DNA of 34,558 nucleotides from a virus. Its lineage: Duplodnaviria; Heunggongvirae; Uroviricota; Caudoviricetes; Peduoviridae. The notes beneath the pieces are model-generated. The model was not told the origin of the DNA. It did not search any database and saw only the letters and a list, made by a program, of their open reading frames with translations. The stretch lies in IMG/VR virus record IMGVR_UViG_2585427767_000007; one strand, 5' to 3'. Shown here piece after piece: positions 3,238-33,655 of this stretch. Every line of letters starts with the position of its first letter. The stretch's first letter is position 1. The position numbers and the translations under genes are program-made.

Positions 3238-3512
3238 GTATTCGTATTGAAATTGGCGAACGTTATGTCGTTACCAGTGACAGCTTTCAGTTTATTCTCC
3301 ACGAGAAAAAGAGAGCGGAAAGCGGTAAAAACGCCGGTCAGGAATGGCTGGCGGTGGTTGGTTATTATCCGAAATTAAGCCAGCTCGTTTCCGGCCTGAT
3401 GCATCACGATATTCTGACCGGAAGCGCAAAATCTTTTGCCGATTTAAACACGCAGGTTGAGCAGCTCAGCAAGCGTTGTTCAGAGGCGTTCTCCAGAGGA
3501 GCGTCTGAATGA
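3234..3512 (+). CDS. Hypothetical early protein (92 aa)
   Basis: ATG 3234 with GGAGAAC upstream; stop overlaps the start of the next gene. Confidence 0.6.
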   Translation: MSIRIEIGERYVVTSDSFQFILHEKKRAESGKNAGQEWLAVVGYYPKLSQLVSGLMHHDILTGSAKSFADLNTQVEQLSKRCSEAFSRGASE

Positions 3513-4516
3513 TTACTGATGCTCGTTGCCATACTGAAAATACCATCAATGTTATTTTTGTTTCAGGTGGAAAGGACAGCCTTGCTCAGTGGCTTGTCGC
3601 TATTGAAGAAAATGTACCCATATTGCCGGTTTTTGCTGATACGGGACATGAACATCCACAGACAATGAAATATCTGGATTATCTGGAAAAACGGCTTGGC
3701 CCAATTAAAAGGGTCAGGGCTGATTTTTCCTGCCGGATTGAATCAAAGCGCAAGTTTATCCAGACCAAATGGCCTGATTTGTTGGTTAACGATTGTGGAA
3801 TGTCGGAAGAAGAAGCGCACCAGCGCATCAGTTGTGCGCTGGAAATTCTCAAACCAACGGGTATCCCGTTTCTTGATTTGTGTCTGTGGAAGGGGCGTTT
3901 CCCATCAACCAAAGCCAGATTTTGCACATTTGAACTGAAACATGAACCCGTGCGTTCTCAGGTAATCCTGCCTTTACTCAATGAATTTGAGGAAGTGATT
4001 AGCTGGCAGGGAGTGCGTGCTCAGGAATCGCCATCACGCGCAGCTTTACCTGTCTGGGAAGAGGATGCAGACAACACCCCCGGATTGCATGTATATCGCC
4101 CGATTTTGCACTGGAAGCATGAAGATGTATTTGCAATAGCCAGAAGACATGACATTAAGCCAAATCCGTTATATCTGCAGGGGTGTGGCCGTGTTGGTTG
4201 TATGCCATGTATTCATGTCCGTAAATCTGAACTGGCAGAAATTTTTCGCCGGTGGCCGGAGGAAATAAAGCGGGTTGCTGAATGGGAACGACTGGTTGCG
4301 TCGTGCTCCCGTCGGGGAAATTCCACTTTTTTCCCATCCACACATGATCCGTTACGCGCAGAACGTCGTATTGAGGTTGTAACAGTCGAGGCATACGGAA
4401 TTGAAACCTACCATGACTGGACAATGACAACGCGTGGGGGTACTCAGTTTGATTTACTGGCTTCGGCGAATGATAAAGCCGTTTGCAGTAGTGTCTATGC
4501 CGGTGTATGTGAATGA
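3509..4516 (+). CDS. PAPS-reductase-like PP-loop protein (phosphoadenosine phosphosulfate reductase family)
   Basis: N-terminal VIFVSGGKDS PP-loop (SGGxDS) motif and C-terminal cysteine cluster (GCGRVGCMPC). Translationally coupled to the downstream gpA gene (ATGA overlap at 4513-4516). Confidence 0.75.
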   Translation: MITDARCHTENTINVIFVSGGKDSLAQWLVAIEENVPILPVFADTGHEHPQTMKYLDYLEKRLGPIKRVRADFSCRIESKRKFIQTKWPDLLVNDCGMSEEEAHQRISCALEILKPTGIPFLDLCLWKGRFPSTKARFCTFELKHEPVRSQVILPLLNEFEEVISWQGVRAQESPSRAALPVWEEDADNTPGLHVYRPILHWKHEDVFAIARRHDIKPNPLYLQGCGRVGCMPCIHVRKSELAEIFRRWPEEIKRVAEWERLVASCSRRGNSTFFPSTHDPLRAERRIEVVTVEAYGIETYHDWTMTTRGGTQFDLLASANDKAVCSSVYAGVCE

Positions 4517-6804
4517 GTCATTCTTTCCAGGAGCAATACACCTGCGTACCTCCGTCTGCGTTTGCCGCAGGCACCGGTAAGGCGTTTACCGGTGCTTATG
4601 CATGGAATACGCCACGCGAGGCTGTCGGGCGCGAAAGACCCCTTACACGTGACGAGATGCGTCAGGTGCAAGGTGTTTTATCCACGATTAACCGCCTGCC
4701 TTACTTTTTGCGCTCGCTGTTTACTTCACGTTATGACTACATACGGCGCAATAAAAGCCCGCTACACGGGTTTTATTTCCTCACATCCACTTTTCAGCGT
4801 CGTTTATGGCCGCGCATTGAGCGTGTGAATCAGCGCCATGAAATGAACACCGACGCGTCGTTACTGTTTCTGGCAGAGCGTGACCACTATGCGCGCCTGC
4901 CGGGAATGAATGACAAGGAGCTGAAAAAGTTTGCTGCCCGTATCTCATCGCAGCTTTTCATGATGTATGAGGAACTCAGCGATGCCTGGGTGGATGCGCA
5001 TGGCGAAAAAGAATCGCTGTTTACGGATGAGGCGCAGGCTCACCTCTATGGTCATGTTGCTGGCGCTGCACGTGCTTTCAATGTTTCCCCTCTCTACTGG
5101 AAAAAATACCGTAAAGGGCAGATGACCACGAGGCAGGCATATTCTGCCATTGCCCGTCTGTTTAACGATGAGTGGTGGATTAGTCAGCTTAAAGGCCAGC
5201 GTATGCGCTGGCATGAGGCGTTACTGATTGCTGTCGGGGAGGTCAATAAAGACCGTTCTCCTTATGCCAGTAAACATGCCATTCGTGATGTGCGTGCACG
5301 CCGCCAGGCAAATCTGGAGTTTCTTAAATCGTGTGACCTTGAAAACAGGGAAACCGGCGAGCGCATCGACCTTATCAGTAAGGTGATGGGCAGTATTTCT
5401 AATCCTGAAATTCGCCGGATGGAGCTGATGAACACCATTGCCGGTATTGAGCGTTACGCTGCAGCAGAGGGTGATGTGGGGATGTTTATCACGCTGACCG
5501 CGCCGTCAAAGTATCACCCGACACGTCAGGTCGGAAAAGGCGAAAGTAAAACCGTCCAGCTAAATCACGGCTGGAACGATGAGGCATTTAATCCAAAGGA
5601 TGCGCAGCGTTATCTCTGCCGTATCTGGAGCCTGATGCGCACGGCATTCAAGGATAATGATTTACAGGTCTACGGTTTGCGTGTCGTCGAGCCACACCAC
5701 GACGGAACGCCGCACTGGCATATGATGCTTTTTTGTAATCCGCGCCAGCGTAACCAGATTATTGAAATCATGCGTCGCTATGCGCTCAAAGAGGATGGCG
5801 ACGAAAGAGGAGCCGCGCGAAACCGTTTTCAGGCAAAACACCTTAACCGGGGCGGTGCTGCGGGGTATATCGCGAAATACATCTCAAAAAACATCGACGG
5901 CTATGCACTGGATGGTCAGCTCGATAACGATACCGGCAGACCTCTGAAAGATACTGCCGCGGCTGTTACTGCATGGGCGTCAACGTGGCGCATCCCGCAA
6001 TTTAAAACGGTTGGTCTGCCGACAATGGGGGCTTACCGTGAACTACGCAAATTGCCGCGCGGCGTCAGCATTGCTGATGAGTTTGACGAGCGCGTCGAGG
6101 CTGCACGCGCCGCCGCAGACAGTGGTGATTTTGCGTTGTATATCAGCGCGCAGGGTGGGGCAAATGTCCCGCGCGATTGTCAGACTGTCAGGGTTGCCCG
6201 TAGCCCGTCGGATGAAGTTAACGAGTACGAGGAAGAAGTCGAGAGAGTGGTCGGCATTTACGCGCCGCATCTCGGCGCGCGTCATATTCATATCACCAGA
6301 ACGACGGACTGGCGCATTGTTCCGAAAGTTCCGGTCGTTGAGCCTTTGACTTTAAAAAGCGGCATCGCCGCGCCTCGGAGTCCTGTCAATAACTGTGGAA
6401 AACTCACCGGTGGTGATACTTCGTTACCGGCTCCCACACCTTCAGAGCACGCCGCAGCAGTGCTTAATCTGGTTGATGACGGTGTTATCGAATGGAATGA
6501 CCAGGAGGTCGTGAAGGCGCTAAGGGGCGCATTAAAACACGGACTGAGAACACCAAATCGTCAGCAAAGAGCCGGAAGCCCGTTAAAACCGCATGAAATA
6601 GCGCCATCGGCCAGAATGACCCGGTCGGAACGAATGCAAATTACCCGTATCCGCGTTGACCTTGCTCAGAACGGTATCAGGCCGCAGCGATGGGTGCTTG
6701 AGGCGCTGGCGCGTGGCGCGACCGTAAATTATGACGGGAAAAAATTCACGTATCCGGTCGCTGATGAGTGGCCGGGATTCTCAACAGTAATGGAGTGGAA
6801 ATGA
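4513..6804 (+). CDS. A: Rolling-circle replication initiation endonuclease gpA
   Basis: 763-aa ORF. HUH motif (PHWHMMLF) and downstream tyrosine pair region (YIAKYISKNIDGY) characteristic of P2 gpA-type relaxase/initiators. Size close to remembered P2 gpA. Confidence 0.9.
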   Translation: MSHSFQEQYTCVPPSAFAAGTGKAFTGAYAWNTPREAVGRERPLTRDEMRQVQGVLSTINRLPYFLRSLFTSRYDYIRRNKSPLHGFYFLTSTFQRRLWPRIERVNQRHEMNTDASLLFLAERDHYARLPGMNDKELKKFAARISSQLFMMYEELSDAWVDAHGEKESLFTDEAQAHLYGHVAGAARAFNVSPLYWKKYRKGQMTTRQAYSAIARLFNDEWWISQLKGQRMRWHEALLIAVGEVNKDRSPYASKHAIRDVRARRQANLEFLKSCDLENRETGERIDLISKVMGSISNPEIRRMELMNTIAGIERYAAAEGDVGMFITLTAPSKYHPTRQVGKGESKTVQLNHGWNDEAFNPKDAQRYLCRIWSLMRTAFKDNDLQVYGLRVVEPHHDGTPHWHMMLFCNPRQRNQIIEIMRRYALKEDGDERGAARNRFQAKHLNRGGAAGYIAKYISKNIDGYALDGQLDNDTGRPLKDTAAAVTAWASTWRIPQFKTVGLPTMGAYRELRKLPRGVSIADEFDERVEAARAAADSGDFALYISAQGGANVPRDCQTVRVARSPSDEVNEYEEEVERVVGIYAPHLGARHIHITRTTDWRIVPKVPVVEPLTLKSGIAAPRSPVNNCGKLTGGDTSLPAPTPSEHAAAVLNLVDDGVIEWNDQEVVKALRGALKHGLRTPNRQQRAGSPLKPHEIAPSARMTRSERMQITRIRVDLAQNGIRPQRWVLEALARGATVNYDGKKFTYPVADEWPGFSTVMEWK

Positions 6805-7043
6805 TGGCAAAAATTCACGAGGTAAAGCTGCACGCAAAATATTTCGACCTTGTGCTGGAAGGAAAGAAACGTGCGGAGTTTCGGAAAAATGACCGTAATT
6901 ATGAGTACGGAGACACGTTGATTTTGCATGAATGGGTTCAGGATGTGTATACGGGGCGAAAGGTTGAAGCCCGGATAACGGATGTTACGGACCTGTCAGA
7001 CTGGCTGGAGGATTATGTTTTGTTAAGTATTCAAGTGTGTTGA
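6801..7043 (+). CDS. Small ASCH/DUF3850-like protein (80 aa)
   Basis: ATG 6801 overlaps the gpA stop, with GGAG 5 nt upstream. Sequence (KIHEVKLHAKYFDLVLEGKKRAEFRKNDRNYEYGDTLILHEW) resembles the small beta-barrel ASCH-like family often found after gpA; family assignment is from memory. Confidence 0.55.
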   Translation: MMAKIHEVKLHAKYFDLVLEGKKRAEFRKNDRNYEYGDTLILHEWVQDVYTGRKVEARITDVTDLSDWLEDYVLLSIQVC

Positions 7044-7329
7044 AAATGTATGCGGTATGTATGGAAAACCGCACCATAACGAGAAAAATATCCAGTATGA
7101 ATCTGCTTAGATTAATAGATCGCAGAAGAGAGAAGAGGTATTGAGCCATGATGCCAATTTGTGAGATACCGAAGTGTTATGACAAAGATGCTTTTAATGT
7201 TACATTCCGTCATTACTCTTATTAATCATCTATTTCAATAGATTAGGATTAATCTGGCTATGTCATTGAAGATGCTCGATGTCTCGATATTTCTTAGCTA
7301 AAATAGGAGGCACTAAGGGAGAGGATGTT

Positions 7330-8388
7330 ATGTCTAAAATTTATGCTATTGACCTTTTTTGTGGTGCAGGTGGATTAACCCATGGTTTGATACAAGCAGG
7401 GATTGGTGTCATTGCTGGTATTGATTTAGATCCAGATTGCAGATGGGCGTATGAGCACAACAACAAAGCTAAATATATAAATTCAGATATTTGTGATGTA
7501 ACAGGTCAAGACCTTATGCGCTTGTGGCCAGAACAGGGAATAAGACTTCTTGCTGGTTGCGCCCCATGTCAGCCTTTTTCAAGTTATCGAAAAGGCAAGA
7601 TTGAATCTGCTGACGGCAAATGGAAACTCTTAGGTGAATTTGGACGGCTAGTCAAAGAATCTTCACCAGACTTGATAACCATGGAAAACGTACCAAGGTT
7701 ACAAAAGCATAAAATTTTCTTGGATTTTGTTAAAGACCTTAAGAAAGGTGGGTATAAGGTCTGGTATGGCGTCGTTGACTGTCAACAATATGGTGTGCCT
7801 CAGAAAAGGCAGCGATTAGTTTTACTGGCATCCAAGATCAGTGATGTTGTGTTGATTCCTCCAACACATTCAGAAGATAACTACGTAACAGTGAAAGATG
7901 CTATTTCTCATTTGCCAGAGATAGATTCAGGGCAAGCTGATGAGAAAGATCCATTACACGTTGCTCAGGGAATGAGCCAATTAAATCTCGAAAGGATTCG
8001 TCAATCAAAACCAGGTGGAACATGGAAGGATTGGGATCCTGAGTTGGTTGCTGCGTGCCATAAGAAAAGTAGTGGCAAAACTTACACAAGTGTATATGGA
8101 CGGATGAGATGGGATGAACCAGCTCCTACAATGACAACCCTATGTTTTGGTTTTGGTAATGGACGTTTTGGGCATCCTCAACAGGATAGGGCCATTTCTT
8201 TACGTGAGGCAGCTATCTTTCAAAGTTTTCCGGAGAACTATGTTTTTTCTGAACCAGGTGCAAAGATCACATTTGCAACAGTTGGTCGCTTGATTGGTAA
8301 TGCCGTTCCGGTAAAACTAGGTGAAGTTGTAGGAAAATCATTTATTAATAGTCTATCTGGGGGTAGTAGGAGAAATGGCGGAGCATAG
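7330..8388 (+). CDS. DNA (cytosine-5)-methyltransferase, Dcm-type
   Basis: Canonical C5-MTase motifs in canonical order: motif I FCGAGG (IDLFCGAGGLTHGL), motif IV PCQPFS (catalytic Cys), motif VI ENV, motif VIII QKRQR, motif X GNAV. ATG 7330 with GGGAGAGG Shine-Dalgarno; the track start at 7279 is a longer upstream extension. Lower GC than the phage backbone. Confidence 0.9.
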   Translation: MSKIYAIDLFCGAGGLTHGLIQAGIGVIAGIDLDPDCRWAYEHNNKAKYINSDICDVTGQDLMRLWPEQGIRLLAGCAPCQPFSSYRKGKIESADGKWKLLGEFGRLVKESSPDLITMENVPRLQKHKIFLDFVKDLKKGGYKVWYGVVDCQQYGVPQKRQRLVLLASKISDVVLIPPTHSEDNYVTVKDAISHLPEIDSGQADEKDPLHVAQGMSQLNLERIRQSKPGGTWKDWDPELVAACHKKSSGKTYTSVYGRMRWDEPAPTMTTLCFGFGNGRFGHPQQDRAISLREAAIFQSFPENYVFSEPGAKITFATVGRLIGNAVPVKLGEVVGKSFINSLSGGSRRNGGA

Positions 8389-10372
8389 CGAAGTTTTATC
8401 GCATGTTGATGAAAAAACACATACTTATGAGATGCTGGTTAGCTTGAGTGTTCTGGGGCATCTGGGGATCAATCTATATAGCAATGTTGCGGCAGTGATT
8501 ACGGAAACAGTAGCTAATGCATGGGATGCAGATGCTACAGAAGTGCATATAAAACTTTCTCCTGACAGAATCACTATTTCGGATAATGGTTTTGGAATGA
8601 CCATTCATGATATGAATTCGAAATATCTAACAGTTGGCTATCAAAAAAGAAATGATAAAAGCCAGCTATTAACTCCCAAGGGACGACTACCCATGGGCAG
8701 AAAAGGTATTGGTAAGTTATCTTTATTTTCTATTGCAAAAACTGTAACGGTTGAATCAATCAAGGATGGAGAACGACATGGTTTAGTTATGGAAGTTCCA
8801 AAAATAGAGCATGCAATCAAAAGTGGGGCTGGTAGATATTATCCAGAACCTTTGGATTCTGCTCAACTTTCTGTGAGTCAAGGAACATTAGTAACATTGC
8901 GTGATCTAAATCGATCTCGCATACCTGCCACTGCAACCGCTTTGCGTAAAAAGTTAGCAAGGCGTTTTTCTGTTATTGGTAGTAATGATTTTAGGGTCTT
9001 CGTTGATGGTGTAGAAGTAACAGCAAAGGAACGTGAGGACCTAAAACATGTTCAGTTCGTATGGGATATTAACTCGGGGGTAGATTTTAAAAAAGAATGT
9101 CCGGGGTTAATAACTGTAACTGACATTTCATCATTTTTGACAGAAAGTCAATTATTTAATCCTGAATGGAGCATTAAAGGGTGGATTGGTAGTATAAAAC
9201 AGCCTAGTCAGTTGAATACACCTGAAGGAAATCTAAATAGCATTGTTGTTTTATCTAGAGGTCGATTGTTTCAAGAGAACATTTTAGATGATATAAACGA
9301 TGGTGGGATATACACAAAGTATCTTACAGGGCAACTTGAGGCAGACTTCCTTGATACAGATGAAGATGAAGATATTGCAACAAGTGATAGACAACGAGTT
9401 GTTGAAGATGACCCTCGTTATCAATATTTGAAATCATTGGTTAAGATTGCCCTGAGAAAGGTTGCTGGTCAATGGAGCTCACTACGAGAAAAGCAAGGAG
9501 CAAAGGAAGCTAAAGAATCGAATCCGGTACTTGCGGAGTGGATCGGTTCATTAAAACCTGCTTCCCGAGGCTATGCAGAAAAAATGATCGCTCAAATTGA
9601 ATCGTTGCCTTTGGAGGATAAACCACAAGAGAAGAAGGAACTCTTTAAGCATGCAATTTTTGCATTTGAGCGCTTGCGTATTAAGGAAATGTCGCAGGAG
9701 CTAGCTGATGCTGTATTTTTTAATGCAGAAAAATTATTGCCATTGCTTGAGAAACAAGACGATTTAGAGGCAACATTATATTATGAGATAGCTAAGAGTC
9801 GTGTAGATGTTATTCAAAGCTTCAAAGGCCTAGTCGATAACGATGAAAAAGAAAAAGTATTGCAACGTTATCTTTTTGAACACCTTTGGTTATTAGACCC
9901 ATCATGGGAAAGAATTGATGGTTCTCCAATAATGGAGTCGCGTGTTAACCAAGAGTGGGACAAGATTGATGCTGGCCTGAGTGAAGAAGAGAAGAAAGGT
10001 CGTATGGATATAAAATATCGCTCATCTGCAGGTAAGCATATTATCATTGAACTTAAGAGAGCTAGCGTATTGACTTCTGTTGCAAATCTAGTCAGTCAGG
10101 GGAATAAGTACAGGCAGGCAGTAATTAAGTGTGCAAAAGCTGTTGACCCGGCCTCAACACCATCAATTGATGTGATTTTTGTCCTTGGTCGAGAGCCATC
10201 AGATTATGCGTTAGACCCATCTTATACTAACCTTCAGCTACAGTCAGTGAATGGTCGGATTGTTTATTATGATGGGCTAATTAATAGCGCACAGAGCTCG
10301 TATAGAGAATATACAGAGAGGCAGGCTACTGTTGCAAGGATTGCTGAAATCGTTAAAAAACTAGATGACTAG
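8375..10372 (+). CDS. GHKL/HATPase_c-type ATPase (665 aa) with C-terminal PD-(D/E)xK-like nuclease motif; candidate restriction/defence effector
   Basis: Bergerat-fold motifs near the N-terminus: N-box ETVANAWDA (ExxxNAxDA), G1 box DNGFGM, G2 box GRKGIGKLS. C-terminal region has D...ExK pattern (GRMDIKY...HIIIELKR). ATG 8375 overlaps the MTase stop by 14 nt with AGGAG upstream. Low GC. Confidence 0.8.
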   Translation: MAEHSEVLSHVDEKTHTYEMLVSLSVLGHLGINLYSNVAAVITETVANAWDADATEVHIKLSPDRITISDNGFGMTIHDMNSKYLTVGYQKRNDKSQLLTPKGRLPMGRKGIGKLSLFSIAKTVTVESIKDGERHGLVMEVPKIEHAIKSGAGRYYPEPLDSAQLSVSQGTLVTLRDLNRSRIPATATALRKKLARRFSVIGSNDFRVFVDGVEVTAKEREDLKHVQFVWDINSGVDFKKECPGLITVTDISSFLTESQLFNPEWSIKGWIGSIKQPSQLNTPEGNLNSIVVLSRGRLFQENILDDINDGGIYTKYLTGQLEADFLDTDEDEDIATSDRQRVVEDDPRYQYLKSLVKIALRKVAGQWSSLREKQGAKEAKESNPVLAEWIGSLKPASRGYAEKMIAQIESLPLEDKPQEKKELFKHAIFAFERLRIKEMSQELADAVFFNAEKLLPLLEKQDDLEATLYYEIAKSRVDVIQSFKGLVDNDEKEKVLQRYLFEHLWLLDPSWERIDGSPIMESRVNQEWDKIDAGLSEEEKKGRMDIKYRSSAGKHIIIELKRASVLTSVANLVSQGNKYRQAVIKCAKAVDPASTPSIDVIFVLGREPSDYALDPSYTNLQLQSVNGRIVYYDGLINSAQSSYREYTERQATVARIAEIVKKLDD

Positions 10373-10443
10373 TTTTTAACACTTAAGGATGCCTATATAT
10401 GCTGCATGGATCTGCATGACCATTTGAATAATTTTTTTGTTAA

Positions 10444-10468
10444 GGCCCGTCAGAATTGGCGGGCTTTT
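10444..10468 (+). terminator. Possible intrinsic terminator after the cargo operon
   Basis: GCCCG ... CGGGC stem followed by TTTT, about 70 nt after the ATPase stop. Stem is short and the loop long, so weak. Confidence 0.35.
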
Positions 10469-10513
10469 GCTTAACTTATAGATGTGCATGAAAATATCTC
10501 CATGAAGCGGGCG

Positions 10514-10532
10514 GGCGAGGCGGGGAAAGCAC
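10514..10532. other. Candidate cos site (19-nt cohesive-end sequence of P2-type phages)
   Basis: GGCGAGGCGGGGAAAGCAC matches my recollection of the P2 cohesive end, and lies where cos is expected in a P2 prophage (between the old/tin-position cargo and the 3' end of Q). Confidence 0.55.
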
Positions 10533-10674
10533 TGCGCGCTGGCGGGGGTGCTGATTTTATTTTTTCAGCGTCTGAGCGCGTCGTGAAGGCGTTTACTTGG
10601 CCTGCTGGGGCGTTGGTGTGTCTGCGGGATTTTTTGTGCGGTGATGAGCGTGTGAGGGCGTGATGACGGGGTGT

Positions 10675-10696
10675 AAAAAAGCCGCCCGCAGGCGGC
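10675..10696 (-). terminator. Rho-independent terminator of the Q-P operon
   Basis: On the minus strand, GCCGCC-tgcg-GGCGGC hairpin followed by TTTTTT, starting 5 nt after the Q stop codon. Confidence 0.7.
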
Positions 10697-10701
10697 GATG
10701 T

Positions 10702-11736
10702 TCAGCCGTTGTCAGTGTCCAGTGAGTAGTTTTTAAAGCGGATGACCTCCTGACCGAGCCAGCCGTTTATTTCCCGAATCCTGTCCTGTAGCGGGATAAG
10801 TTCATTGCGGACAAAGACCTTTGCCACTTTCTCAATATCACCCAGAGACCCGACGTTCTCCGGCTTGCCGCCCATCAACTGAAAGGGGATGCGGTGTGCG
10901 TCCAGCAGGTCAGCGGCGCTGGCTTTTTTGATATTAAAAAAATCGTCCTTCGTCGCCACTTCACTGAGCGGGATAATTTTAATGCCGTCGGCTTTCCCCT
11001 GTGGGGCATAGAGAAACAGGTTTTTAAAGTTATTGCGGCCTTTCGACTTCACCATGTTTTCGCGAAGCATTTCGATATCGTTGCGGTCCTGCACGGCATC
11101 GGTGACGTACATGATGTATCCGGCATGCGCGCCGTTTTCGTAATACTTGCGGCGGAACAGCGTGGCCGACTCATTCAGCCAGGCAGAGTTAAGGGCGCTG
11201 AGATATTCCGGCAGGCCGTACAGCTCCTGATTAATATCCGGCTCCAGCAGGTGAAACACGGAACCGGGCGCGAAAGGTGTCGGCTCGTTGAAGGACGGCA
11301 CCCACCAGTAAACATCCTCCTCCACGCCACGGCGGGGATATTTTGCCGGGGAGGTTTCCAGTCTGATGATCTTACCGGTGGTGCTGTAACGCTTTTCCAG
11401 AAACGCATTACCGAACACCAGAAAATCCAGCACAAAGCGGCTGAAATCCTGTTGCGAAAGCCACGGATGCGGGATAAATGTCGAGGCCAGAATATTGCGT
11501 TTAACGTAAATCGGTGAGCTGTGATGCACGGCAGCACGCAGGCTTTTCGCCAGACCGGTAAAGCTGACCGGCGGCTCATACCATCTGCCGTTACTGATGC
11601 ACTCGACGTAATCCAGAATGTCACGGCGGTCGAGTACCGGCACCGGCTCACCAAAGGTGAATGCCTCCATTTTCGGGGCGCTGGCGGTCATTTTTTTTGC
11701 CGCAGGTTGCGGTGTTTTCCCTTTTTTCTTGCTCAT
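10702..11736 (-). CDS. Q: Portal protein gpQ
   Basis: 344-aa minus-strand ORF at the canonical position next to cos; matches remembered P2 gpQ size. Start ATG overlaps the terminase stop by 1 nt. Confidence 0.9.
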   Translation of the reverse strand: MSKKKGKTPQPAAKKMTASAPKMEAFTFGEPVPVLDRRDILDYVECISNGRWYEPPVSFTGLAKSLRAAVHHSSPIYVKRNILASTFIPHPWLSQQDFSRFVLDFLVFGNAFLEKRYSTTGKIIRLETSPAKYPRRGVEEDVYWWVPSFNEPTPFAPGSVFHLLEPDINQELYGLPEYLSALNSAWLNESATLFRRKYYENGAHAGYIMYVTDAVQDRNDIEMLRENMVKSKGRNNFKNLFLYAPQGKADGIKIIPLSEVATKDDFFNIKKASAADLLDAHRIPFQLMGGKPENVGSLGDIEKVAKVFVRNELIPLQDRIREINGWLGQEVIRFKNYSLDTDNG

Positions 11737-13508
11737 CAGTAAAACTCCAGAATGGTGGATGTCAGCGGGGTGCTGATACCGGCGGTGAGTGGCTCATTTA
11801 ACAGGGCGTGCATGGTCGCCCAGGCGAGGTCGGCGTGGCTGGCTTCCTCGCTGCGGCTGGCCTCATAAGTGGCGCTGCGTCCGCTGCTGGTCATGGTCTT
11901 GCGGATAGCCATAAACGAGCTGGTGATGTCGGTGGCGCTGACGTCATATTCCAGACAGCCACGGCGGATGACGTCTTTTGCCTTGAGCACCATTGCGGTT
12001 TTCATTTCCGGCGTGTAGCGGATATCGCGCGCGGCGGGATAGAACGAGCGCACGAGCTGGAACACGCCGACACCGAGGCCGGTGGCATCAATACCGATGT
12101 ATTCGACGTTGTATTTTTCGGTGAGTTTGCGGATGGATTCCGCCTGAGTGGCAAAGTCCATGCCTTTCCACTGGTGACGCTCAAGTATTCTGAATTTGCC
12201 ACCGGCCACCACCGGCGGTGCCAGTACCACGCATCCGGCGCTGTCGCCACGGTGTGACGGGTCGTAACCAATCCAGACCGGGCGGGAGCCGAACGGATTG
12301 GCGGCAAACGGCGCATAGTCTTCCCATTCTTCCAGCGTGTCGACCATGCAGCGTTGCAGCTCCTCGAACGGGAACACCGACGCCTTGTCGTCAACAAATT
12401 CACACATGAACAGGTTTTTAAAATCGTCGGCGCTGTTTTCGCGTTTGAGCTGTTCAATGTCGAACAGCGTGCAGCCACCTTTCAGGGCGTCCTCAATGGT
12501 GACAATCTGCCGCCACTGGCCGTCCGCACAGAGAAGCCCACCGGCAAGGGCGTTATGACTGACGTCGATTTCCACGCGTTCGGCGGCGCTGGCGCGTCCC
12601 CGGTTGAACAGTTCACCTGACCAGAACGGGTAGGCGTCGTGCGCCAGCGTGGACGGGGTGGAGAAATAGGTCGAGCGCAGGTGACTCTGTGAGGCCATAC
12701 CTGATGCCACCTTACGCAGTACCTGAAAATTCGGGATCCAGAAAATCTCGTCGACGTACAGGTCGCCGTTATGGCTCTGTGCGGTGTTGGAGTTGGTGCC
12801 GAGAAAAATCAGTTTTGCGCCGTTATTGCCCAGGACAATCGGGTCACCGGTCAGGTCAACGTCAACCAGCCGGGCAAAGGCGATGATGTATTCGCGGAAC
12901 ACATACGCCTGCGTTTTACTGGCCGACAGAAAAATCTGGTTATGGCCGGTTTTCAGGGCGCGCAGCAGCGCCTCGCGGGAAAAATAAAACGTCGCGCCAA
13001 TCTGGCGGGATTTCAGGATATCGCGGATGCGGTGCTCAAGCCCGGCGCGATACCAGTGCAACTGATAGTCGAAAGACTGCTCAAAGAAAATCTGCTCCAG
13101 CTTTTCGATGGCCTCGTCACTGAAAAAATTTTTTTTCGGTTTGCGCCGCCCGCCTTTGTTGCGGTTAGCGACGTTCGGATTAAGGTCTGCCTCGTTGCCG
13201 GTCTGGCTGTAACGATTTACCCGTGCCAGTCGTTCAATCTGGCGTCCCAGCAGGTCAATTTCCTTGAAGTCACCGCCGGTTTTCTGCGGTTTGATGATGA
13301 GCTGGGTCAGCCGCGCTTCCAGGCTCATTTCGACACGGCTGATGGGGGCAACATTGTCCCAGCCGTCGCGCTGTTTCCAGCTCTGCACTGTCGGGCGTTT
13401 CATCTGCAACATGGCGGCAATCTGCGGCACGGAAAATCCCTGCCAGTACAGCAGCGCCGCCTGACGACGCGGGTCGTGTAAAAGAGTGGTGTCTGTGGTG
13501 ATGGTCAT
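11736..13508 (-). CDS. P: Terminase large (ATPase) subunit gpP
   Basis: Minus-strand ORF. The track start at 13538 is a TTG; the in-frame ATG at 13506-13508 (MTITTDTTLL...) gives 590 aa, matching remembered P2 gpP size. Confidence 0.9.
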   Translation of the reverse strand: MTITTDTTLLHDPRRQAALLYWQGFSVPQIAAMLQMKRPTVQSWKQRDGWDNVAPISRVEMSLEARLTQLIIKPQKTGGDFKEIDLLGRQIERLARVNRYSQTGNEADLNPNVANRNKGGRRKPKKNFFSDEAIEKLEQIFFEQSFDYQLHWYRAGLEHRIRDILKSRQIGATFYFSREALLRALKTGHNQIFLSASKTQAYVFREYIIAFARLVDVDLTGDPIVLGNNGAKLIFLGTNSNTAQSHNGDLYVDEIFWIPNFQVLRKVASGMASQSHLRSTYFSTPSTLAHDAYPFWSGELFNRGRASAAERVEIDVSHNALAGGLLCADGQWRQIVTIEDALKGGCTLFDIEQLKRENSADDFKNLFMCEFVDDKASVFPFEELQRCMVDTLEEWEDYAPFAANPFGSRPVWIGYDPSHRGDSAGCVVLAPPVVAGGKFRILERHQWKGMDFATQAESIRKLTEKYNVEYIGIDATGLGVGVFQLVRSFYPAARDIRYTPEMKTAMVLKAKDVIRRGCLEYDVSATDITSSFMAIRKTMTSSGRSATYEASRSEEASHADLAWATMHALLNEPLTAGISTPLTSTILEFY

Positions 13509-15671: not shown

Positions 15672-16415
15672 ATGACGAGTCCCGCACAGCGCCACATGAT
15701 GCGGGTCTCGGCAGCGATGACCGCGCAGCGGGAAGCCGCCCCGCTGCGACATGCAACTGTCTATGAGCAGATGCTGGTCAAGCTGGCCGCAGACCAGCGC
15801 ACACTGAAAGCGATTTATTCAAAAGAGCTGAAGGCCGCGAAAAAGCGCGAACTGCTGCCGTTCTGGTTGCCGTGGGTGAACGGCGTGCTGGAGCAGGGCA
15901 AAGGCGCACAGGATGACATTCTGATGACGGTCATGCTGTGGCGTCTGGATACCGGCGATATTGCCGGTGCGCTGGAGATTGCCCGTTATGCCCTGAAATA
16001 CGGTCTGACCATGCCGGGTAAACACCGCCGCACCCCGCCGTATATGTTCACCGAGGAGGTCGCGCTCGCGGCCATGCGCGCCCACGCGGCCGGTGAGTCT
16101 GTGGATACCCGCCTGCTGACGGAGACCCTTGAACTGACTGCCGCTGCTGACATGCCTGATGAAGTGCGCGCAAAGCTGCACAAAATCACCGGTCTGTTAC
16201 TGCGTGACGGCGGTGATGCCGCAGGTGCGCTGGCGCACCTGCAACGTGCGACACAGCTCGACTGTCAGGCAGGCGTCAAAAAAGAGATTGAACGACTGGA
16301 GCGGGAGCTGAAACCGAAGCCGGAGCCGCAGCCCAAAGCGGCCACCCGCGCCCCGCGTAAGACCCGGAGTGTGACACCGGCAAAACGTGGACGCCCGAAA
16401 AAGAAAGCCAGTTAA
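15672..16415 (+). CDS. M: Terminase small/endonuclease subunit gpM
   Basis: 247-aa ORF with basic C-terminal tail (KRGRPKKKAS); size and position match P2 gpM. Confidence 0.85.
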   Translation: MTSPAQRHMMRVSAAMTAQREAAPLRHATVYEQMLVKLAADQRTLKAIYSKELKAAKKRELLPFWLPWVNGVLEQGKGAQDDILMTVMLWRLDTGDIAGALEIARYALKYGLTMPGKHRRTPPYMFTEEVALAAMRAHAAGESVDTRLLTETLELTAAADMPDEVRAKLHKITGLLLRDGGDAAGALAHLQRATQLDCQAGVKKEIERLERELKPKPEPQPKAATRAPRKTRSVTPAKRGRPKKKAS

Positions 16416-22380: not shown

Positions 22381-25140
22381 ATGAGCACGAAATTTAAAAC
22401 CGTTATCACTACTGCCGGAGCCGCAAAGCTGGCAGCCGCCACTGTCCCCGGCGGGAAAAAAGTAAACCTGTCTGCAATGGCCGTGGGTGACGGTAATGGC
22501 AAATTGCCGGTGCCGGATGCCGGTCAGACGAAACTGGTGCATGAGGTCTGGCGTCACGCTCTGAATAAAGTCAGCGTGGATAACAAGAATAAAAACTATA
22601 TCGTGGCTGAACTGGTTGTACCGCCCGAAGTGGGCGGCTTCTGGATGCGTGAGCTTGGTCTGTATGACGATGCCGGAACACTGATTGCGGTATCCAACAT
22701 GGCAGAAAGCTATAAGCCAGAACTGGCTGAAGGCTCCGGACGTGCGCAGACCTGCCGCATGGTTATTATTCTCAGCAACGTGGCGTCCGTTGAGCTGAGT
22801 ATTGATGCCAGCACGGTGATGGCGACGCAGGATTACGTCGATGACAAAATCGCAGAGCATGAGCAGTCCCGCCGCCATCCTGACGCCACGCTGACAGAAA
22901 AAGGTTTTACTCAGTTAAGCAGTGCAACAAACAGCACCAGTGAAAAGCTGGCGGCAACGCCAAAAGCGGTCAAGGCAGCAAATGACAACGCAAATTCACG
23001 TCTGGCGAAAAATCAGAACGGTGCAGATATCCAGGATAAATCAGCTTTTCTGGACAATGTTGGCGTTACCAGCCTGACGTTTATGAAAAACAATGGCGAA
23101 ATGCCGCTTGATGCTGATCTGAATACATTTGGTCCCGTTAAGGCTTATCTGGGGATCTGGTCTAAAGCTACCTCAACTAACGCAACACTGGAGAAAAATT
23201 TCCCGGAAGATAATGCTGTCGGTGTGCTTGAGGTTTTTGCTGCCGGCAATTTTGCAGGTACGCAACGCTTTACCACAAGAGACGGCAATGTATACATGCG
23301 TAAACTCGCCAATAAGTGGAATGGCACTGATGGTCCGTGGGGCGTATGGCGTCACACTCAATCAGCTACCCGCCCTTTGAGTACGACTATAGACCTGAAT
23401 ACGCTTGGAGCCGCCGAACATCTTGGTTTATGGCGTAACAGTAGCTCGGCTATAGCTTCATATGAACGCAATTATCCAGAGGAAGGCGGCTTTGCTCAGG
23501 GGACGCTTGAGATCCTTGAAGGCGGGAATTATGGAAGAACGCAACGTTATACCACTCGCCGTGGAAATATGTATGTCCGCTGCCTTGCGGCAAGCTGGGA
23601 TGCATCAAATCCGCAGTGGGAACCGTGGTTAAGAGTCGGTCATCAGTCAGAGAGTCGTTATTACGAAGGTGATTTGAATGATGTAACCTCACCAGGTATT
23701 TACAGCGTTACAGGTAAAGCGACCAACGGTCCAGTACTGGACGGAAACGGCGTGACTGTACTCGGCATTCTGGAAGTGTTGAGGCGGTTTGATGGTGTTA
23801 ATGTATGGCAGCGTTATACAACTGCCGGAACAGGTACAACCCTTAAAGGCCGCACCTTTGAGCGCGTCTTTACCGGCAGCTCATGGAGCGAATGGCGGGA
23901 AGTCTACACCTCGTATTCACTTCCCCTGAATCTGGGTATCGGCGGTGCTGTGGCAAAGCTCACCAGCCTGGACTGGCAGACCTACGATTTTGTGCCGGGC
24001 AGTCTGATAACCGTTAGGCTGGATAATATGACCAATATTCCCGACGGTATGGACTGGGGCGTCATTGATGGCAACCTGATAAACATCGCAGTTGGTCCGA
24101 GTGATGATTCCGGTACGGGGCGCTCAATGCATGTATGGCGCAGCACTGTAAGTAAAGCGAACTACCGATTTTTTATGGTGCGTATTTCAGGAAATCCGGG
24201 AAGCCGCACGATCACAGCAAGACGAGTACCAATCATTGACGAAGCCCAGACATGGGGCGCGAAACAGACATTCAGTGCTGGCCTTTCTGGTGAACTGTCC
24301 GGCAATGCGGCGACAGCAACAAAGCTGAAAACAGCCCGTAAAATTAATAACGTTTCGTTTGATGGAACATCAGATATTAACCTGACGCCGAAAAATATTG
24401 GTGCATTTGCTTCAGGAAAAACAGGAGACACCGTTGCGAATGATAAAGCCGTTGGGTGGAACTGGAGTAGCGGAGCCTATAACGCAACTACTGGTGGGGC
24501 ATCAACGTTAATTCTTCATTTTAATATCGGTGAAGGAAGTTGTCCCGCCGCCCAGTTCCGCGTTAATTATAAGAACGGCGGTATTTTTTATCGTTCTGCT
24601 CGTGACGGTTACGGATTCGAGGCTGACTGGTCTGAGTTTTATACCACAACGCGAAAACCTACAGCGGGAGATGTCGGTGCACTGCCGTTATCTGGTGGTC
24701 AATTGAATGGTGCTCTGGGTATAGGAACATCCAGTGCTCTTGGCGGTAATTCGATTGTTTTGGGTGATAATGACACGGGCTTTAAACAAAATGGTGATGG
24801 TAATCTGGATGTTTATGCTAATAGCGTCCATATTATGCGCTTTGTCTCGGGAAGTATTCAAAGTAATAAAACCATAAATATTACGGGGCGTGTTAATCCC
24901 TCGGATTACGGTAACTTTGATTCCCGCTATGTCCGGGATATCCGGCTTGGTGGTGCTGCCACATACAAACCTGCGAACAATGGCATGACATGGACACATC
25001 AGGCACCGTCCGGGTGTGTATATTCCGGCATTATTGTTCAGGATACCGGCTCAAACTCTGCCGATAACATTGGTGGTGTATATTACAGGCCGGTTCAGAA
25101 ATACATTAACGGGACATGGTATAACGTGGCGCAGGTATAA
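22381..25140 (+). CDS. H: Tail fibre protein gpH, extended 919-aa variant
   Basis: Position after I. Considerably longer than the roughly 669 aa I remember for P2 gpH. Contains three related internal repeats beginning GVLEVF.../GTLEILEG.../GILEVLRR..., each carrying a QR(F/Y)TT core. Confidence 0.85.
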   Translation: MSTKFKTVITTAGAAKLAAATVPGGKKVNLSAMAVGDGNGKLPVPDAGQTKLVHEVWRHALNKVSVDNKNKNYIVAELVVPPEVGGFWMRELGLYDDAGTLIAVSNMAESYKPELAEGSGRAQTCRMVIILSNVASVELSIDASTVMATQDYVDDKIAEHEQSRRHPDATLTEKGFTQLSSATNSTSEKLAATPKAVKAANDNANSRLAKNQNGADIQDKSAFLDNVGVTSLTFMKNNGEMPLDADLNTFGPVKAYLGIWSKATSTNATLEKNFPEDNAVGVLEVFAAGNFAGTQRFTTRDGNVYMRKLANKWNGTDGPWGVWRHTQSATRPLSTTIDLNTLGAAEHLGLWRNSSSAIASYERNYPEEGGFAQGTLEILEGGNYGRTQRYTTRRGNMYVRCLAASWDASNPQWEPWLRVGHQSESRYYEGDLNDVTSPGIYSVTGKATNGPVLDGNGVTVLGILEVLRRFDGVNVWQRYTTAGTGTTLKGRTFERVFTGSSWSEWREVYTSYSLPLNLGIGGAVAKLTSLDWQTYDFVPGSLITVRLDNMTNIPDGMDWGVIDGNLINIAVGPSDDSGTGRSMHVWRSTVSKANYRFFMVRISGNPGSRTITARRVPIIDEAQTWGAKQTFSAGLSGELSGNAATATKLKTARKINNVSFDGTSDINLTPKNIGAFASGKTGDTVANDKAVGWNWSSGAYNATTGGASTLILHFNIGEGSCPAAQFRVNYKNGGIFYRSARDGYGFEADWSEFYTTTRKPTAGDVGALPLSGGQLNGALGIGTSSALGGNSIVLGDNDTGFKQNGDGNLDVYANSVHIMRFVSGSIQSNKTINITGRVNPSDYGNFDSRYVRDIRLGGAATYKPANNGMTWTHQAPSGCVYSGIIVQDTGSNSADNIGGVYYRPVQKYINGTWYNVAQV

Positions 25141-25892: not shown

Positions 25893-26486
25893 ATGTTTAC
25901 TAAGCGACGATTAAAAAATATTAACTGGGAGGCAAGTTCAGTGATTCTTGCTATGGTTCTCTTTGTTGGAAATATATTTTATACAAATCATCGTGATGAT
26001 ATAAGCATGGAGGCTGAGAGGGACAGTATCAGAACAATGTTTGCATATGAAATCGCTAATAACCATCGCGCTCTCACTTTTCTTGATAAAACGAGACATA
26101 TTGGCTTTGACGAAAATTCGGAGCATTTTGTTGGCGAGCCTTTTGCCATTAATGTCAAATCATTAGGGGGGCCTCGCTTACAGATTGCATTAAACCAGAC
26201 TGATAAAGTGTTTAAATCCTACTTCAGCGAATTAAGTAAGCTTGGTAAAGAGGATGTTACTCTTCTTATGGACTATTACCATGAGCAAAGCATCCTGCTG
26301 GAGCGTGTAAAATCTACGTTACAGAAGATGAAAAGTGGTAATGATATTAAAGTTGATATTGATGGTTACTTATTAGAAGAACACTTCATGAATGAGCTTA
26401 ATCTTTCTAATATTTTGCTTAAACGCTATAGCCATTTGTTGTCACAATACGCTAAAGAACATAAAACAAAAGATTTACATAATTGA
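25893..26486 (+). CDS. AT-rich moron at the P2 Z/fun locus: 197-aa hypothetical protein with N-terminal membrane anchor
   Basis: ATG 25893 with AAGG upstream. Single hydrophobic segment SSVILAMVLFVGNIF near the N-terminus. Markedly lower GC than the flanking tail genes; followed by a strong terminator. Confidence 0.65.
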   Translation: MFTKRRLKNINWEASSVILAMVLFVGNIFYTNHRDDISMEAERDSIRTMFAYEIANNHRALTFLDKTRHIGFDENSEHFVGEPFAINVKSLGGPRLQIALNQTDKVFKSYFSELSKLGKEDVTLLMDYYHEQSILLERVKSTLQKMKSGNDIKVDIDGYLLEEHFMNELNLSNILLKRYSHLLSQYAKEHKTKDLHN

Positions 26487-26695
26487 TAATCTGCTAATGG
26501 TTATTCATGGGGTAACTATGTTTTATATGTAATCCAACTCAGATGAATTATTGATTCTGGATAATAACCGCAGAGCGGCATATACCCTGACAGGCAAATG
26601 TCCGCTTCTTGTTCAAAGCAGACTGTCAGATTTGATAACTTTTGGGCTATGTAAATTGTCAGTCGGAAAATGAGTGAGTTCAAATCAGGACAGGC

Positions 26696-26734
26696 GGGGG
26701 GAATTGCCCCCCCTTTTTTTTTTTTTTTTTTTTT
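26696..26734 (+). terminator. Intrinsic terminator: G6-loop-C7 hairpin followed by a T21 homopolymer
   Basis: GGGGGG-AATTG-CCCCCCC (26696-26713) followed by 21 consecutive T (26714-26734), downstream of the moron ORF and about 80 nt upstream of FI. Confidence 0.6.
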
Positions 26735-26816
26735 CCCCTGACCAGCCAGGTCAAATAGCGTCTCATGCTCTGCACAACAGAAAATAGTTGCACCCATTAA
26801 CCACGGAGTTAAACGG

Positions 26817-28007
26817 ATGAGTGACTATCATCACGGCGTGCAGGTGCTGGAGATTAACGACGGCACCCGCGTCATTTCCACCGTATCCACGGCCATTGTC
26901 GGCATGGTCTGCACGGCCAGCGATGCGGATGCGGAAACCTTCCCCCTCAATAAACCGGTGCTGATTACCAATGTGCAGAGCGCAATTGCAAAGGCCGGTA
27001 AAACAGGCACGCTGGCGGCATCGTTGCAGGCCATCGCTGACCAGTCAAAACCGGTCACCGTTGTCGTGCGTGTGGAAGACGGCACCGGCGAAGACGAAGA
27101 AACGAAGCTCGCGCAGACCGTTTCCAATATCATCGGCACCACCGACGAAAACGGTCAGTACACCGGACTGAAAGCCCTGCTGGCGGCGGAGTCGGTAACC
27201 GGTGTTAAACCGCGTATTCTCGGCGTGCCGGGACTGGATACCAAAGAGGTGGCTGTTGCACTGGCATCTGTCTGTCAGAAGTTGCGCGCTTTCGGGTATA
27301 TCAGCGCATGGGGCTGTAAAACCATTTCCGAGGTGAAAGCCTACCGCCAGAATTTCAGCCAGCGTGAGCTGATGGTCATCTGGCCGGATTTCCTCGCATG
27401 GGATACGGTCACCAGTACCACCGCCACCGCGTATGCCACCGCCCGTGCACTGGGGCTGCGTGCCAAAATCGACCAGGAGCAGGGCTGGCATAAAACGCTG
27501 TCCAATGTCGGGGTGAACGGTGTTACCGGCATCAGCGCCTCTGTATTCTGGGATTTGCAGGAGTCCGGCACTGATGCTGACCTGCTGAACGAGGCAGGCG
27601 TCACAACGCTGGTTCGCCGCGACGGTTTCCGTTTCTGGGGTAACCGTACCTGCTCCGATGACCCACTTTTCCTCTTTGAAAACTACACCCGCACCGCGCA
27701 GGTGCTGGCCGACACGATGGCTGAGGCGCACATGTGGGCGGTGGACAAGCCCATCACCGCAACGCTGATTCGCGACATCGTTGACGGCATCAATGCCAAA
27801 TTCCGTGAGCTGAAAACAAACGGCTATATCGTGGATGCGACCTGCTGGTTCAGCGAAGAATCCAACGATGCGGAAACCCTCAAGGCCGGAAAACTGTATA
27901 TCGACTACGACTATACACCGGTGCCTCCTCTCGAAAACCTGACCCTGCGCCAGCGTATTACCGATAAATACCTGGCAAATCTGGTCACCTCGGTTAACAG
28001 CAATTAA
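26817..28007 (+). CDS. FI: Tail sheath protein gpFI
   Basis: 396 aa; size and position match P2 gpFI. Confidence 0.9.
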   Translation: MSDYHHGVQVLEINDGTRVISTVSTAIVGMVCTASDADAETFPLNKPVLITNVQSAIAKAGKTGTLAASLQAIADQSKPVTVVVRVEDGTGEDEETKLAQTVSNIIGTTDENGQYTGLKALLAAESVTGVKPRILGVPGLDTKEVAVALASVCQKLRAFGYISAWGCKTISEVKAYRQNFSQRELMVIWPDFLAWDTVTSTTATAYATARALGLRAKIDQEQGWHKTLSNVGVNGVTGISASVFWDLQESGTDADLLNEAGVTTLVRRDGFRFWGNRTCSDDPLFLFENYTRTAQVLADTMAEAHMWAVDKPITATLIRDIVDGINAKFRELKTNGYIVDATCWFSEESNDAETLKAGKLYIDYDYTPVPPLENLTLRQRITDKYLANLVTSVNSN

Positions 28008-33456: not shown

Positions 33457-33612
33457 TGGTCGATGTGGACGCTATGTGGACAGTGGTTGATATAAATCCA
33501 TTTATATCATCAGGTTAGGTGCTTTTTTGTGACACCATCCCTGTCTTCCCCCACATGATGTGGGGTTTTTTTTTATCCTCAATTTGCTTGCTGCTTAATG
33601 CATTGCAGATGA
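33457..33612. other. Putative attR region (phage arm plus core), boundaries not resolved
   Basis: Between ogr and host fieF. Contains direct repeat ATGTGGAC x2 (33462-33469, 33473-33480), palindrome GATATAAAT-cca-ATTTATATC (33489-33509), and hairpin CCCCACAT-gatg-TGGGG followed by T9 (about 33549-33575). attL is not in the window, so the core cannot be confirmed. Confidence 0.4.
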
Positions 33613-33655
33613 TTTGCTTCCGTTATACTACCGTCAGTTGATAGCGGGAGTATTT

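What the first reader, a model, noticed from the sequence alone, without database searches (positions are those of the whole stretch)
10514..10532. Probable cos site located between the cargo island and the portal gene
The 19-mer GGCGAGGCGGGGAAAGCAC matches my recollection of the P2 cohesive end and is in the expected position. If correct, the methyltransferase/ATPase cargo is the last DNA packaged and sits immediately next to the packaging site.
Basis: partly seen in the sequence, partly recalled or inferred. Interest (0 to 1): 0.35.

Follow-up and report, generated by a model that had tools for sequence, protein, structure and literature searches.

The report
P2 phage cos packaging site
This 19-base stretch is the well-known cohesive-end (cos) site where P2-family phages cut their circular DNA for packaging, and it sits in its normal place in an intact-looking P2-like prophage of E. 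coli, so the call is right but ordinary.

Summary
GGCGAGGCGGGGAAAGCAC occurs once in the window, at 10514-10532 (+). It is identical to the cosL/cosR features annotated in phage P2 (NC_001895) and to the left end of satellite P4. Several cos-linearised Peduovirus records begin exactly at window base 10514.

The context is canonical P2:
- the site lies 169 nt upstream of the stop of portal gene Q (167 nt in P2), followed by terminase P;
- the terminase proteins gpM and gpP and the portal gpQ are 99% identical to P2's;
- the inferred phage genome is about 33.7 kb (P2: 33.6 kb).

The cargo to the left is a type II restriction-modification pair, a C5-methyltransferase plus a BbrUII/HgiDII-family restriction enzyme. 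It sits in the known cos-adjacent defence hotspot of P2-like phages (Rousset 2022).

One mild oddity was found. The 29-bp left arm of the 55-bp cos carries 5 substitutions against the consensus. All fall at naturally variable positions. This combination occurs only together with this cargo (7 of 5426 E. coli genomes, no phage record).

The claim that the cargo is the "last DNA packaged" could not be verified. Verdict: already known, low interest.

The parts
10514..10532 (+). 19-nt cohesive-end sequence (the cosN equivalent). Inferred staggered nicks lie 5' of G10514 on the top strand and after the complement of C10532 on the bottom strand, giving 5' overhangs.
   Evidence: Unique exact match. 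Identical to P2 cosL/cosR and to the P4 left end; 186 differs at 2 nt. The nick polarity comes from the 186 record's note and from '5'-extruding' in PMC3931495. Records P24B2, S164, P24A7b, HQ103 and VB-YPM-4 start at this base.
10485..10513 (+). Left arm of the 55-bp cos: TGCATGAAAATATCTCCATGAAGCGGGCG. This is a divergent variant.
   Evidence: The block is shared by P2, P4 and 186 and by 120 IMG/VR loci. The window has 5 mismatches to the consensus (-24, -19, -18, -17, -15). All positions that are invariant in the 120 loci are retained.
10533..10539 (+). Right arm of the 55-bp cos: TGCGCGC.
   Evidence: Conserved as YGCGCGC in P2, P4 and 186. No mismatches among P2-class loci carrying unrelated cargo.
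10681..10696 (-). tQ-type intrinsic terminator ending the P-Q operon.
   Evidence: Terminator scan. P2 annotates tQ at the equivalent place, 160-181.
10702..11736 (-). Portal protein gpQ.
   Evidence: Pfam Phage_portal. 338/343 residues identical to P2 gpQ.
11736..13508 (-). Large terminase gpP, using the P2-equivalent start. The mechanical ORF extends to 13538.
   Evidence: Pfam Terminase_6N, Terminase_6C and Terminase_5. 589/590 residues identical to P2 gpP.
15672..16415 (+). Small terminase gpM.
   Evidence: Pfam Phage_term_smal. 244/247 residues identical to P2 gpM.
7279..8388 (+). Cargo: C5 cytosine DNA methyltransferase.
   Evidence: Pfam DNA_methylase 1.3e-55. NCBIfam dcm. PADLOC MTase_II.
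8375..10372 (+). Cargo: BbrUII/HgiDII-family type II restriction enzyme with an N-terminal GHKL ATPase-like domain.
   Evidence: NCBIfam NF050001 equivalog, 785 bits against a cut-off of 550. PADLOC REase_II. Pfam HATPase_c_3.
10444..10468 (+). Hairpin followed by T-run after the restriction gene. Probably the terminator of the cargo cassette.
   Evidence: DNA fold of 10436-10476: -10.3 kcal/mol, z = -4.2, no shuffle of 200 folds as well.
6768..7043 (+). Orf91/DUF3850 remnant, marking the left edge of the cargo island.
   Evidence: Pfam DUF3850. PGAP marks the equivalent gene as a C-terminally truncated pseudogene in strain MZ1211. P2 has Orf91 directly after gene A.
33531..33577 (+). attR core, 47 bp. 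It sets the size of the excised genome that this cos must serve.
   Evidence: The same 47-mer lies upstream of int in L131, and a 46/47 copy in MZ1211. The prophage unit is about 33,693 bp, against 33,593 bp for P2.

Best explanation
Window 10485-10539 is the cos site of a P2-like (Peduovirus) prophage integrated between cpxP and fieF of E. coli. The following mechanism is taken from P2 and not shown for this element. After excision and replication, the phage terminase (gpM small subunit plus gpP large subunit), together with proheads, recognises the ~55-bp cos on covalently closed circular monomers. It makes two nicks 19 bp apart, 5' of G10514 on the top strand and opposite C10532 on the bottom strand. 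One genome length of about 33.7 kb is then threaded through the gpQ portal. The virion DNA is therefore linear with complementary 19-nt 5' overhangs. Its left end starts at 10514 and runs into Q, P, O, N and M. Its right end carries gene A, the R-M cargo and the cos left arm. After injection the ends anneal and are ligated. The R-M cassette occupies the known cos-adjacent accessory (defence) hotspot. Which end enters the capsid last is not established here.
For: Sequence identity: the 19-mer matches the curated P2 cosL/cosR and the P4 end exactly. PMC3931495 quotes the same 19-nt 5'-extruding end and a 55-bp cos. At least five cos-linearised phage records begin at window 10514.

Flanks: the right arm TGCGCGC is perfect. 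The left arm keeps every position that is invariant in 120 natural cos sites.

Context: the spacing to the tQ terminator and the Q stop is the same as in P2.

Cognate machinery: gpM 244/247, gpP 589/590 and gpQ 338/343 residues identical to P2.

Genome size: an attL/attR core repeat gives a 33,693-bp unit, within the P2 capsid size class.

Intactness: a full P2 gene set is present.

Known biology: P2 packages circular monomers cut at a 55-bp cos to give 19-nt ends (PMC2231350; PMC5557969). The cos-adjacent hotspot between gpA and gpQ is described in PMC9122126.
Against: There are no virion-end data for this element. The left arm differs from the consensus at 5 of 29 positions and from P2's own arm at 6. 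This destroys the CCGCCC/GGGCGG inverted repeat seen in P2. The exact arm is absent from all 50,697 phage records; the best is 93.4% over 61 nt. In E. coli it occurs only in 7 of 5426 genomes. Packaging competence of this variant is therefore untested.
Confidence: 0.9

Rival explanations
1. The site is a genuine P2-type cos by descent, but it is impaired or inactive for packaging. The swap that brought in the R-M cassette replaced part of the left arm, so the prophage is poorly packaged or not packaged.
For: Five substitutions cluster at -24 and -19..-15, positions that are otherwise 86-96% conserved. The combination is unique to this cargo. The terminase is essentially P2's, so there is no sign of a co-adapted change in specificity.
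Against: Each single substitution is seen in 2-8 other natural cos sites, and all invariant blocks (GCAT, AAA, AAG, GGGC) are intact. 15 of 120 natural arms are at least as far from the consensus. The same cargo-plus-arm sits next to portal/terminase DNA that is only 98.1-98.5% identical in some genomes, while the cargo itself is at least 99.8% identical. That points to spread between backbones. The prophage otherwise looks intact.
Confidence: 0.1
2. The region encodes a small protein (ORF 10484-10663, 59 aa, GTG start), which several phage records annotate as 'hypothetical protein', and the 19-mer is simply part of that coding sequence.
For: The ORF exists. Similar ORFs are annotated in phage 9W, P2-T22 and others.
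Against: It has no Pfam match. It is not annotated in the curated P2 record or by PGAP. Cos cleavage would split it in virion DNA. By my own reading of the sequence, the equivalent frame in 186 hits a stop shortly after cos. The region is G+C-rich, which generates spurious ORFs.
Confidence: 0.02
3. It is the cos of a P4-like satellite, or a chance match, rather than the phage's own site.
For: P4 carries the identical 19-mer. 51 of 118 IMG/VR loci with the 19-mer lack the P2-type right flank.
Against: The right flank is P2-class throughout and runs straight into Q and P. No match appeared in 100 shuffles.
Confidence: 0.01

Closest known systems
Bacteriophage P2 cos (NC_001895: cosL 1-19, cosR 33575-33593)
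   Same: Identical 19-nt cohesive end and identical 7-bp right arm. The distance to tQ and the Q stop is the same (169 vs 167 nt). The terminase and portal are 99% identical. Accessory genes lie immediately to the left.
   Different: The left arm differs at 6 of 29 positions. The cargo is an HgiDII-like R-M pair instead of old/tin.
Satellite P4 cos (NC_001609)
   Same: Identical 19-mer and a shared ~55-bp core. It is cut by the same P2 terminase.
   Different: The flanks beyond the core are unrelated. P4's variable locus (gop/beta) lies to the right of the 19-mer, whereas the P2-type hotspot lies to the left.
Phage 186 cos (NC_001317)
   Same: Same architecture and same position upstream of the portal gene W. 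The cohesive end is also 19 nt.
   Different: The 19-mer differs at 2 positions (GGCGTGGCGGGGAAAGCAT) and the arms are more diverged.
Phage lambda cos (cosQ-cosN-cosB)
   Same: Terminase makes sequence-specific staggered nicks that give 5' cohesive ends.
   Different: Lambda has 12-nt ends, a ~200-bp site and a concatemeric substrate. P2 uses 19-nt ends, a ~55-bp core and circular monomers.
cos-adjacent defence hotspot of P2-like phages (Rousset et al. 2022, PMC9122126)
   Same: The variable cassette lies between gpA/Orf91 and cos/gpQ and abuts cos directly.
   Different: Here the cassette is a classical type II R-M system, a class already listed for these hotspots. Nothing new in kind.

Membership tests
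P2-family (Peduoviridae) cos site | 19-nt cohesive-end sequence GGCGAGGCGGGGAAAGCAC (P2/P4 type) | tested here: met
   Exact, unique match at 10514-10532. Identical to the annotated P2 cosL/cosR and to the P4 end. Quoted in PMC3931495.
P2-family (Peduoviridae) cos site | Conserved ~55-bp core: about 29 bp to the left and 7 bp (YGCGCGC) to the right of the 19-mer | tested here: met
   The right arm is perfect. The left arm matches the consensus at 24 of 29 positions, all invariant positions are retained, and the 5 substitutions fall only at naturally variable positions. The variant is atypical.
P2-family (Peduoviridae) cos site | Location just downstream of the convergent portal (Q) and large terminase (P) operon, bordering the accessory locus after gene A | tested here: met
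   ORF map and Pfam. P2 annotation. tQ terminator.
P2-family (Peduoviridae) cos site | Cognate gpM/gpP terminase encoded in the same element | tested here: met
   gpM 244/247 and gpP 589/590 residues identical to P2.
P2-family (Peduoviridae) cos site | Excised genome of a size that one P2 capsid can package | tested here: met
   The att core repeat gives about 33,693 bp, against 33,593 bp for P2.
P2-family (Peduoviridae) cos site | Virion DNA ends with 19-nt 5' overhangs at this site; cis-acting requirement for packaging | not testable with these tools
   Needs induction plus end sequencing, or a cosmid transduction assay.
Type II R-M cargo (BbrUII/HgiDII family) | Adjacent C5-MTase and a REase that passes the family's curated cut-off | tested here: met
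   NF050001 at 785 bits against a cut-off of 550; dcm superfamily. PADLOC MTase_II and REase_II. Activity and specificity were not tested.

The most novel reading that the evidence does not exclude
The divergent block of the cos left arm (-24..-15) is inherited together with the R-M cassette and not with the phage backbone. If so, the junction of the cargo exchange lies inside cos, within about 15 bp of the terminase nick. That would be a natural footprint of the idea, raised as speculation by Rousset et al. 2022, that cohesive ends seed recombination at the P2 and P4 hotspots. It would also imply that cargo swaps can remodel the packaging signal itself, possibly altering packaging efficiency or competition between helper and satellite.
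Probability: 0.25. Interest if true: 0.35.

Novelty: already known. Interest (0 to 1): 0.1.

Why it matters
The finding fixes the ends of the virion chromosome of this prophage, with the left end at 10514 and the right end at 10532. It also shows that the R-M cassette sits in the classical cos-adjacent hotspot. This helps annotation, since RefSeq annotates nothing at this site, and it helps anyone designing cosmids or cos knock-outs. It adds no new biology. The only thread worth a small follow-up is the cargo-linked variant of the left arm.

Tried and rejected
1. Packaging direction ('cargo is last packaged'). Seven successful full-text searches and several paper look-ups gave no statement of which P2 end enters last. 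Only the title of Chattoraj & Inman 1974 was retrievable. The Christie & Calendar review and the Black & Thomas review are not held.

2. Sequence logic on direction is ambiguous. The terminase genes lie next to the left end; by analogy with lambda gene order (my own knowledge) that favours packaging the left end first. But the long conserved arm shared with P4 lies on the cargo (right-end) side, where a lambda-like cosB would predict the opposite. I therefore made no call.

3. Secondary structure of cos. The DNA fold is no better than shuffles (z = -0.08 for the window, +0.48 for P2), so I rejected a hairpin model.

4. Rfam over the whole window: no family reached threshold.

5. Origin of the cargo or the left-arm variant elsewhere: no plasmid match, none in the one-genome-per-species collection, and only the same prophage in IMG/VR.

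6. Chance match and P4-satellite origin: rejected on the shuffle result and on the flanks.

Full report
**Observation**

Window 10514-10532 reads GGCGAGGCGGGGAAAGCAC on the + strand. It is the only match in the window on either strand, even with up to 3 mismatches allowed. None of 100 dinucleotide-preserving shuffles produced a match.

**Identity**

- The RefSeq record of phage P2 (NC_001895) annotates bases 1-19 as 'cosL; left cohesive end' and 33575-33593 as 'cosR'. Both read ggcgaggcggggaaagcac, identical to the window.
- Satellite P4 (NC_001609) starts with the same 19 bases.
- Phage 186 differs at two positions, GGCGTGGCGGGGAAAGCAT. Its record notes that the top strand is cut at the 5' end and the bottom strand at the 3' end.
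- PMC3931495 quotes the P2 ends as 19-nt 5'-extruding 5'-GGCGAGGCGGGGAAAGCAC-3' within a 55-bp cos region.
- In a megablast of window 10380-10720 against 50,697 phage records, several cos-linearised genomes (P24B2, S164, P24A7b, HQ103, VB-YPM-4) begin at record base 1 aligned to query base 135. That is window base 10514, the first base of the 19-mer.

**Anatomy of the full site**

I joined the right and left ends of P2, P4 and 186. The shared core is about 29 bp to the left (TGCATTAAAACCGCCCCGYRAAGCGGGCG), the 19-mer, and 7 bp to the right (YGCGCGC), which together make the '55-bp cos'.

Of 118 with enough flank, 67 have the P2-type right flank and 51 do not; the latter are mostly satellite-like. 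The two classes share conservation only from about -34 to +26.

Among 62 unique P2-class loci (61 IMG/VR loci plus the window itself) there are 1852 pairs with unrelated upstream cargo. Their per-position mismatch rates behave as follows:

| Positions | Mismatch rate |
|---|---|
| -37 and further left | ~0.5-0.77 (random level) |
| -36..-30 | 0.26-0.55 |
| -28..-25 (GCAT), -22..-20 (AAA), -9..-7 (AAG), -5..-2 (GGGC), +20..+26 (TGCGCGC) | 0 |

Positions -24, -23 and -19..-10 vary. The zero within the 19-mer itself follows from the search pattern and carries no information.

**The window's version**

- The right arm is TGCGCGC, a perfect match.
- The left arm is TGCATGAAAATATCTCCATGAAGCGGGCG. 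It differs from the consensus at 5 positions (-24, -19, -18, -17, -15) and from P2's own arm at 6.
- It keeps every position that is invariant across the 120 loci.
- Each of its substitutions is seen in 2-8 other natural sites, and 15 of 120 arms are at least as far from the consensus.
- The exact combination is rare. No phage record has it; the best is 93.4% over 61 nt. Among 5426 complete E. coli genomes, 2139 have a match to the 68-bp probe, but only 7 match at 98.5% or better over its full length. The next best is 89.7%.
- Those 7 genomes are exactly the ones that carry the same cargo.
- IMG/VR holds one further copy, in the same prophage.
- The one-genome-per-species collection and the plasmid collection hold none.
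- The substitutions remove the CCGCCC/GGGCGG inverted repeat visible in P2. That repeat is not conserved in nature either (A at -16 in 42 of 120 loci), and neither version folds better than shuffled sequence.

**Context**

| Window coordinates | Feature | Evidence |
|---|---|---|
| 4513-6804 (+) | Replication gene A | |
| 6768-7043 (+) | Orf91/DUF3850 remnant; PGAP calls its equivalent a truncated pseudogene in strain MZ1211 | |
| 7279-8388 (+) | C5 methyltransferase | |
| 8375-10372 (+) | BbrUII/HgiDII-family restriction enzyme (NCBIfam equivalog 785 bits, cut-off 550) with a GHKL ATPase-like N-terminus | |
| 10444-10468 (+) | Strong hairpin with T-run, z = -4.2 | |
| 10485-10539 | cos | see above |
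| 10681-10696 (-) | tQ-like terminator | |
| 10702-11736 (-) | Portal Q | |
| 11736-13508 (-) | Large terminase P | |
| further right | O, N and the small terminase M (15672-16415) | |

The gap between the 19-mer and the Q stop is 169 nt, against 167 nt in P2. gpM, gpP and gpQ are 244/247, 589/590 and 338/343 residues identical to P2's, so the enzyme that must read this cos is essentially the P2 terminase.

The prophage lies between cpxP and fieF. A 47-bp att core at 33531-33577 is repeated upstream of int in related copies. This gives a unit of about 33,693 bp, close to P2's 33,593 bp.

**Mechanism (inferred from P2, not shown here)**

P2 packages covalently closed circular monomers that are cut at the 55-bp cos to give 19-nt cohesive ends (PMC2231350; PMC5557969). 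By homology, gpM and gpP together with proheads nick 5' of G10514 on the top strand and opposite C10532 on the bottom strand. The linear genome runs 10514 -> Q P O N M ... -> att junction -> int ... A -> R-M -> 10532. The ends re-anneal after injection.

**Cargo position**

The cos-adjacent region between gpA and gpQ is a documented hotspot of anti-phage systems in P2-like phages. The equivalent hotspot in P4 includes type II R-M systems (PMC9122126).

'Last DNA packaged' depends on the direction of packaging. I could not retrieve the primary result (Chattoraj & Inman 1974; only its title appears) or any secondary statement. The unsuccessful calls are listed under Tried and rejected.

Sequence logic cuts both ways. 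But the long arm shared by P2 and P4 lies on the cargo side. I leave this point open. [quoted passage not shown]

**Rivals**

- A cos weakened by its atypical left arm is possible (about 0.1). Against it: the invariant blocks are intact, and the cargo is at least 99.8% identical across genomes whose adjacent portal/terminase DNA is only 98.1-98.5% identical. That suggests spread between backbones.
- The 59-aa ORF over cos (10484-10663) is annotated as hypothetical in some phage records. It has no family match, and it is absent from the curated P2 record and from PGAP annotation.
- Chance and a P4-satellite origin are excluded.
- Rfam finds nothing in the window.

**Verdict**

This is a textbook feature of a very common prophage type: more than a third of complete E. 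coli genomes match the region. It is already known and of low interest. The only non-trivial residue is the cargo-linked variant of the left arm, which may mark a recombination junction inside cos.

Noticed in passing
window 10485-10513: The left arm of cos carries a unique combination of 5 substitutions. It is found only together with the HgiDII-like R-M cargo (7 of 5426 E. coli genomes, one IMG/VR contig, no phage record). It may mark the cargo-exchange junction inside cos.
   Followed up: partly
window 33531-33577 (and L131 24-70, L130 ~2339-2385): A 47-bp att core (the cpxP terminator) is duplicated at both prophage ends, giving a prophage unit of about 33,693 bp between cpxP and fieF. TGTGGAC(A/G)CTATGTGGACA repeats, which look like Int arm sites, lie near both ends.
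   Followed up: partly
window 33614-34558: The last ORF of the window is the host gene fieF (a CDF cation-efflux transporter), not phage DNA.
   Followed up: yes
window 6768-7043: An Orf91/DUF3850 (ASCH-like) remnant follows gene A directly. PGAP marks the equivalent as a C-terminally truncated pseudogene, so it is the left edge of the cargo island.
   Followed up: partly
window 3509-4516: A PAPS-reductase-family gene with SspD/DndC/BrxP-like PADLOC hits sits in the early operon just upstream of gene A. It may be a further accessory or defence-related gene.
   Followed up: no
window 25893-26486 (+) and 26516-26797 (-): Two ORFs lie between the tail-fibre genes and the 396-aa ORF at 26817-28007. 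By position (from my recollection of the P2 map) this is the Z/fun locus. Neither has a Pfam or PADLOC match, so this is unknown cargo.
   Followed up: partly
window 22381-25140: The tail-fibre H gene encodes 919 aa and carries T-even gp37 C-terminal and trimerisation domains. From memory, P2 gpH is shorter (about 669 aa), so this may be a mosaic receptor-binding tip.
   Followed up: no
whole window (sites at 12339, 12750, 28497): GTCGAC occurs 3 times against about 8.8 expected from base composition. From memory this is the HgiDII/SalI-type site. The avoidance is mild, and the specificity of this R-M system is unverified.
   Followed up: no
window 10484-10663: A 59-aa GTG ORF spans cos. Equivalent ORFs are annotated 'hypothetical protein' in several deposited phage genomes. 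This is probably an annotation artefact in G+C-rich non-coding DNA.
   Followed up: partly
window 10482-10506: The left arm of cos contains two CAT(G/T)AA motifs 14 bp apart (TGCATGAA ... TCCATGAA), also visible in the consensus arm. They could be paired protein-binding half-sites; this is speculative.
   Followed up: no
L004/L005 (P4 NC_001609) compared with L001/L002 (P2): The variable hotspot lies to the right of the 19-mer in P4 (gop/beta) but to the left of it in P2-like phages (old/tin, or here the R-M pair). It is therefore on opposite sides of the same cos.
   Followed up: partly
NZ_OY754453.1 (hit H126): In one of the 7 genomes that carry the cargo, an IS2 element interrupts the cassette, and the restriction gene is annotated only as 'ATP-binding protein'. 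The restriction function may be decaying in that genome.
   Followed up: no
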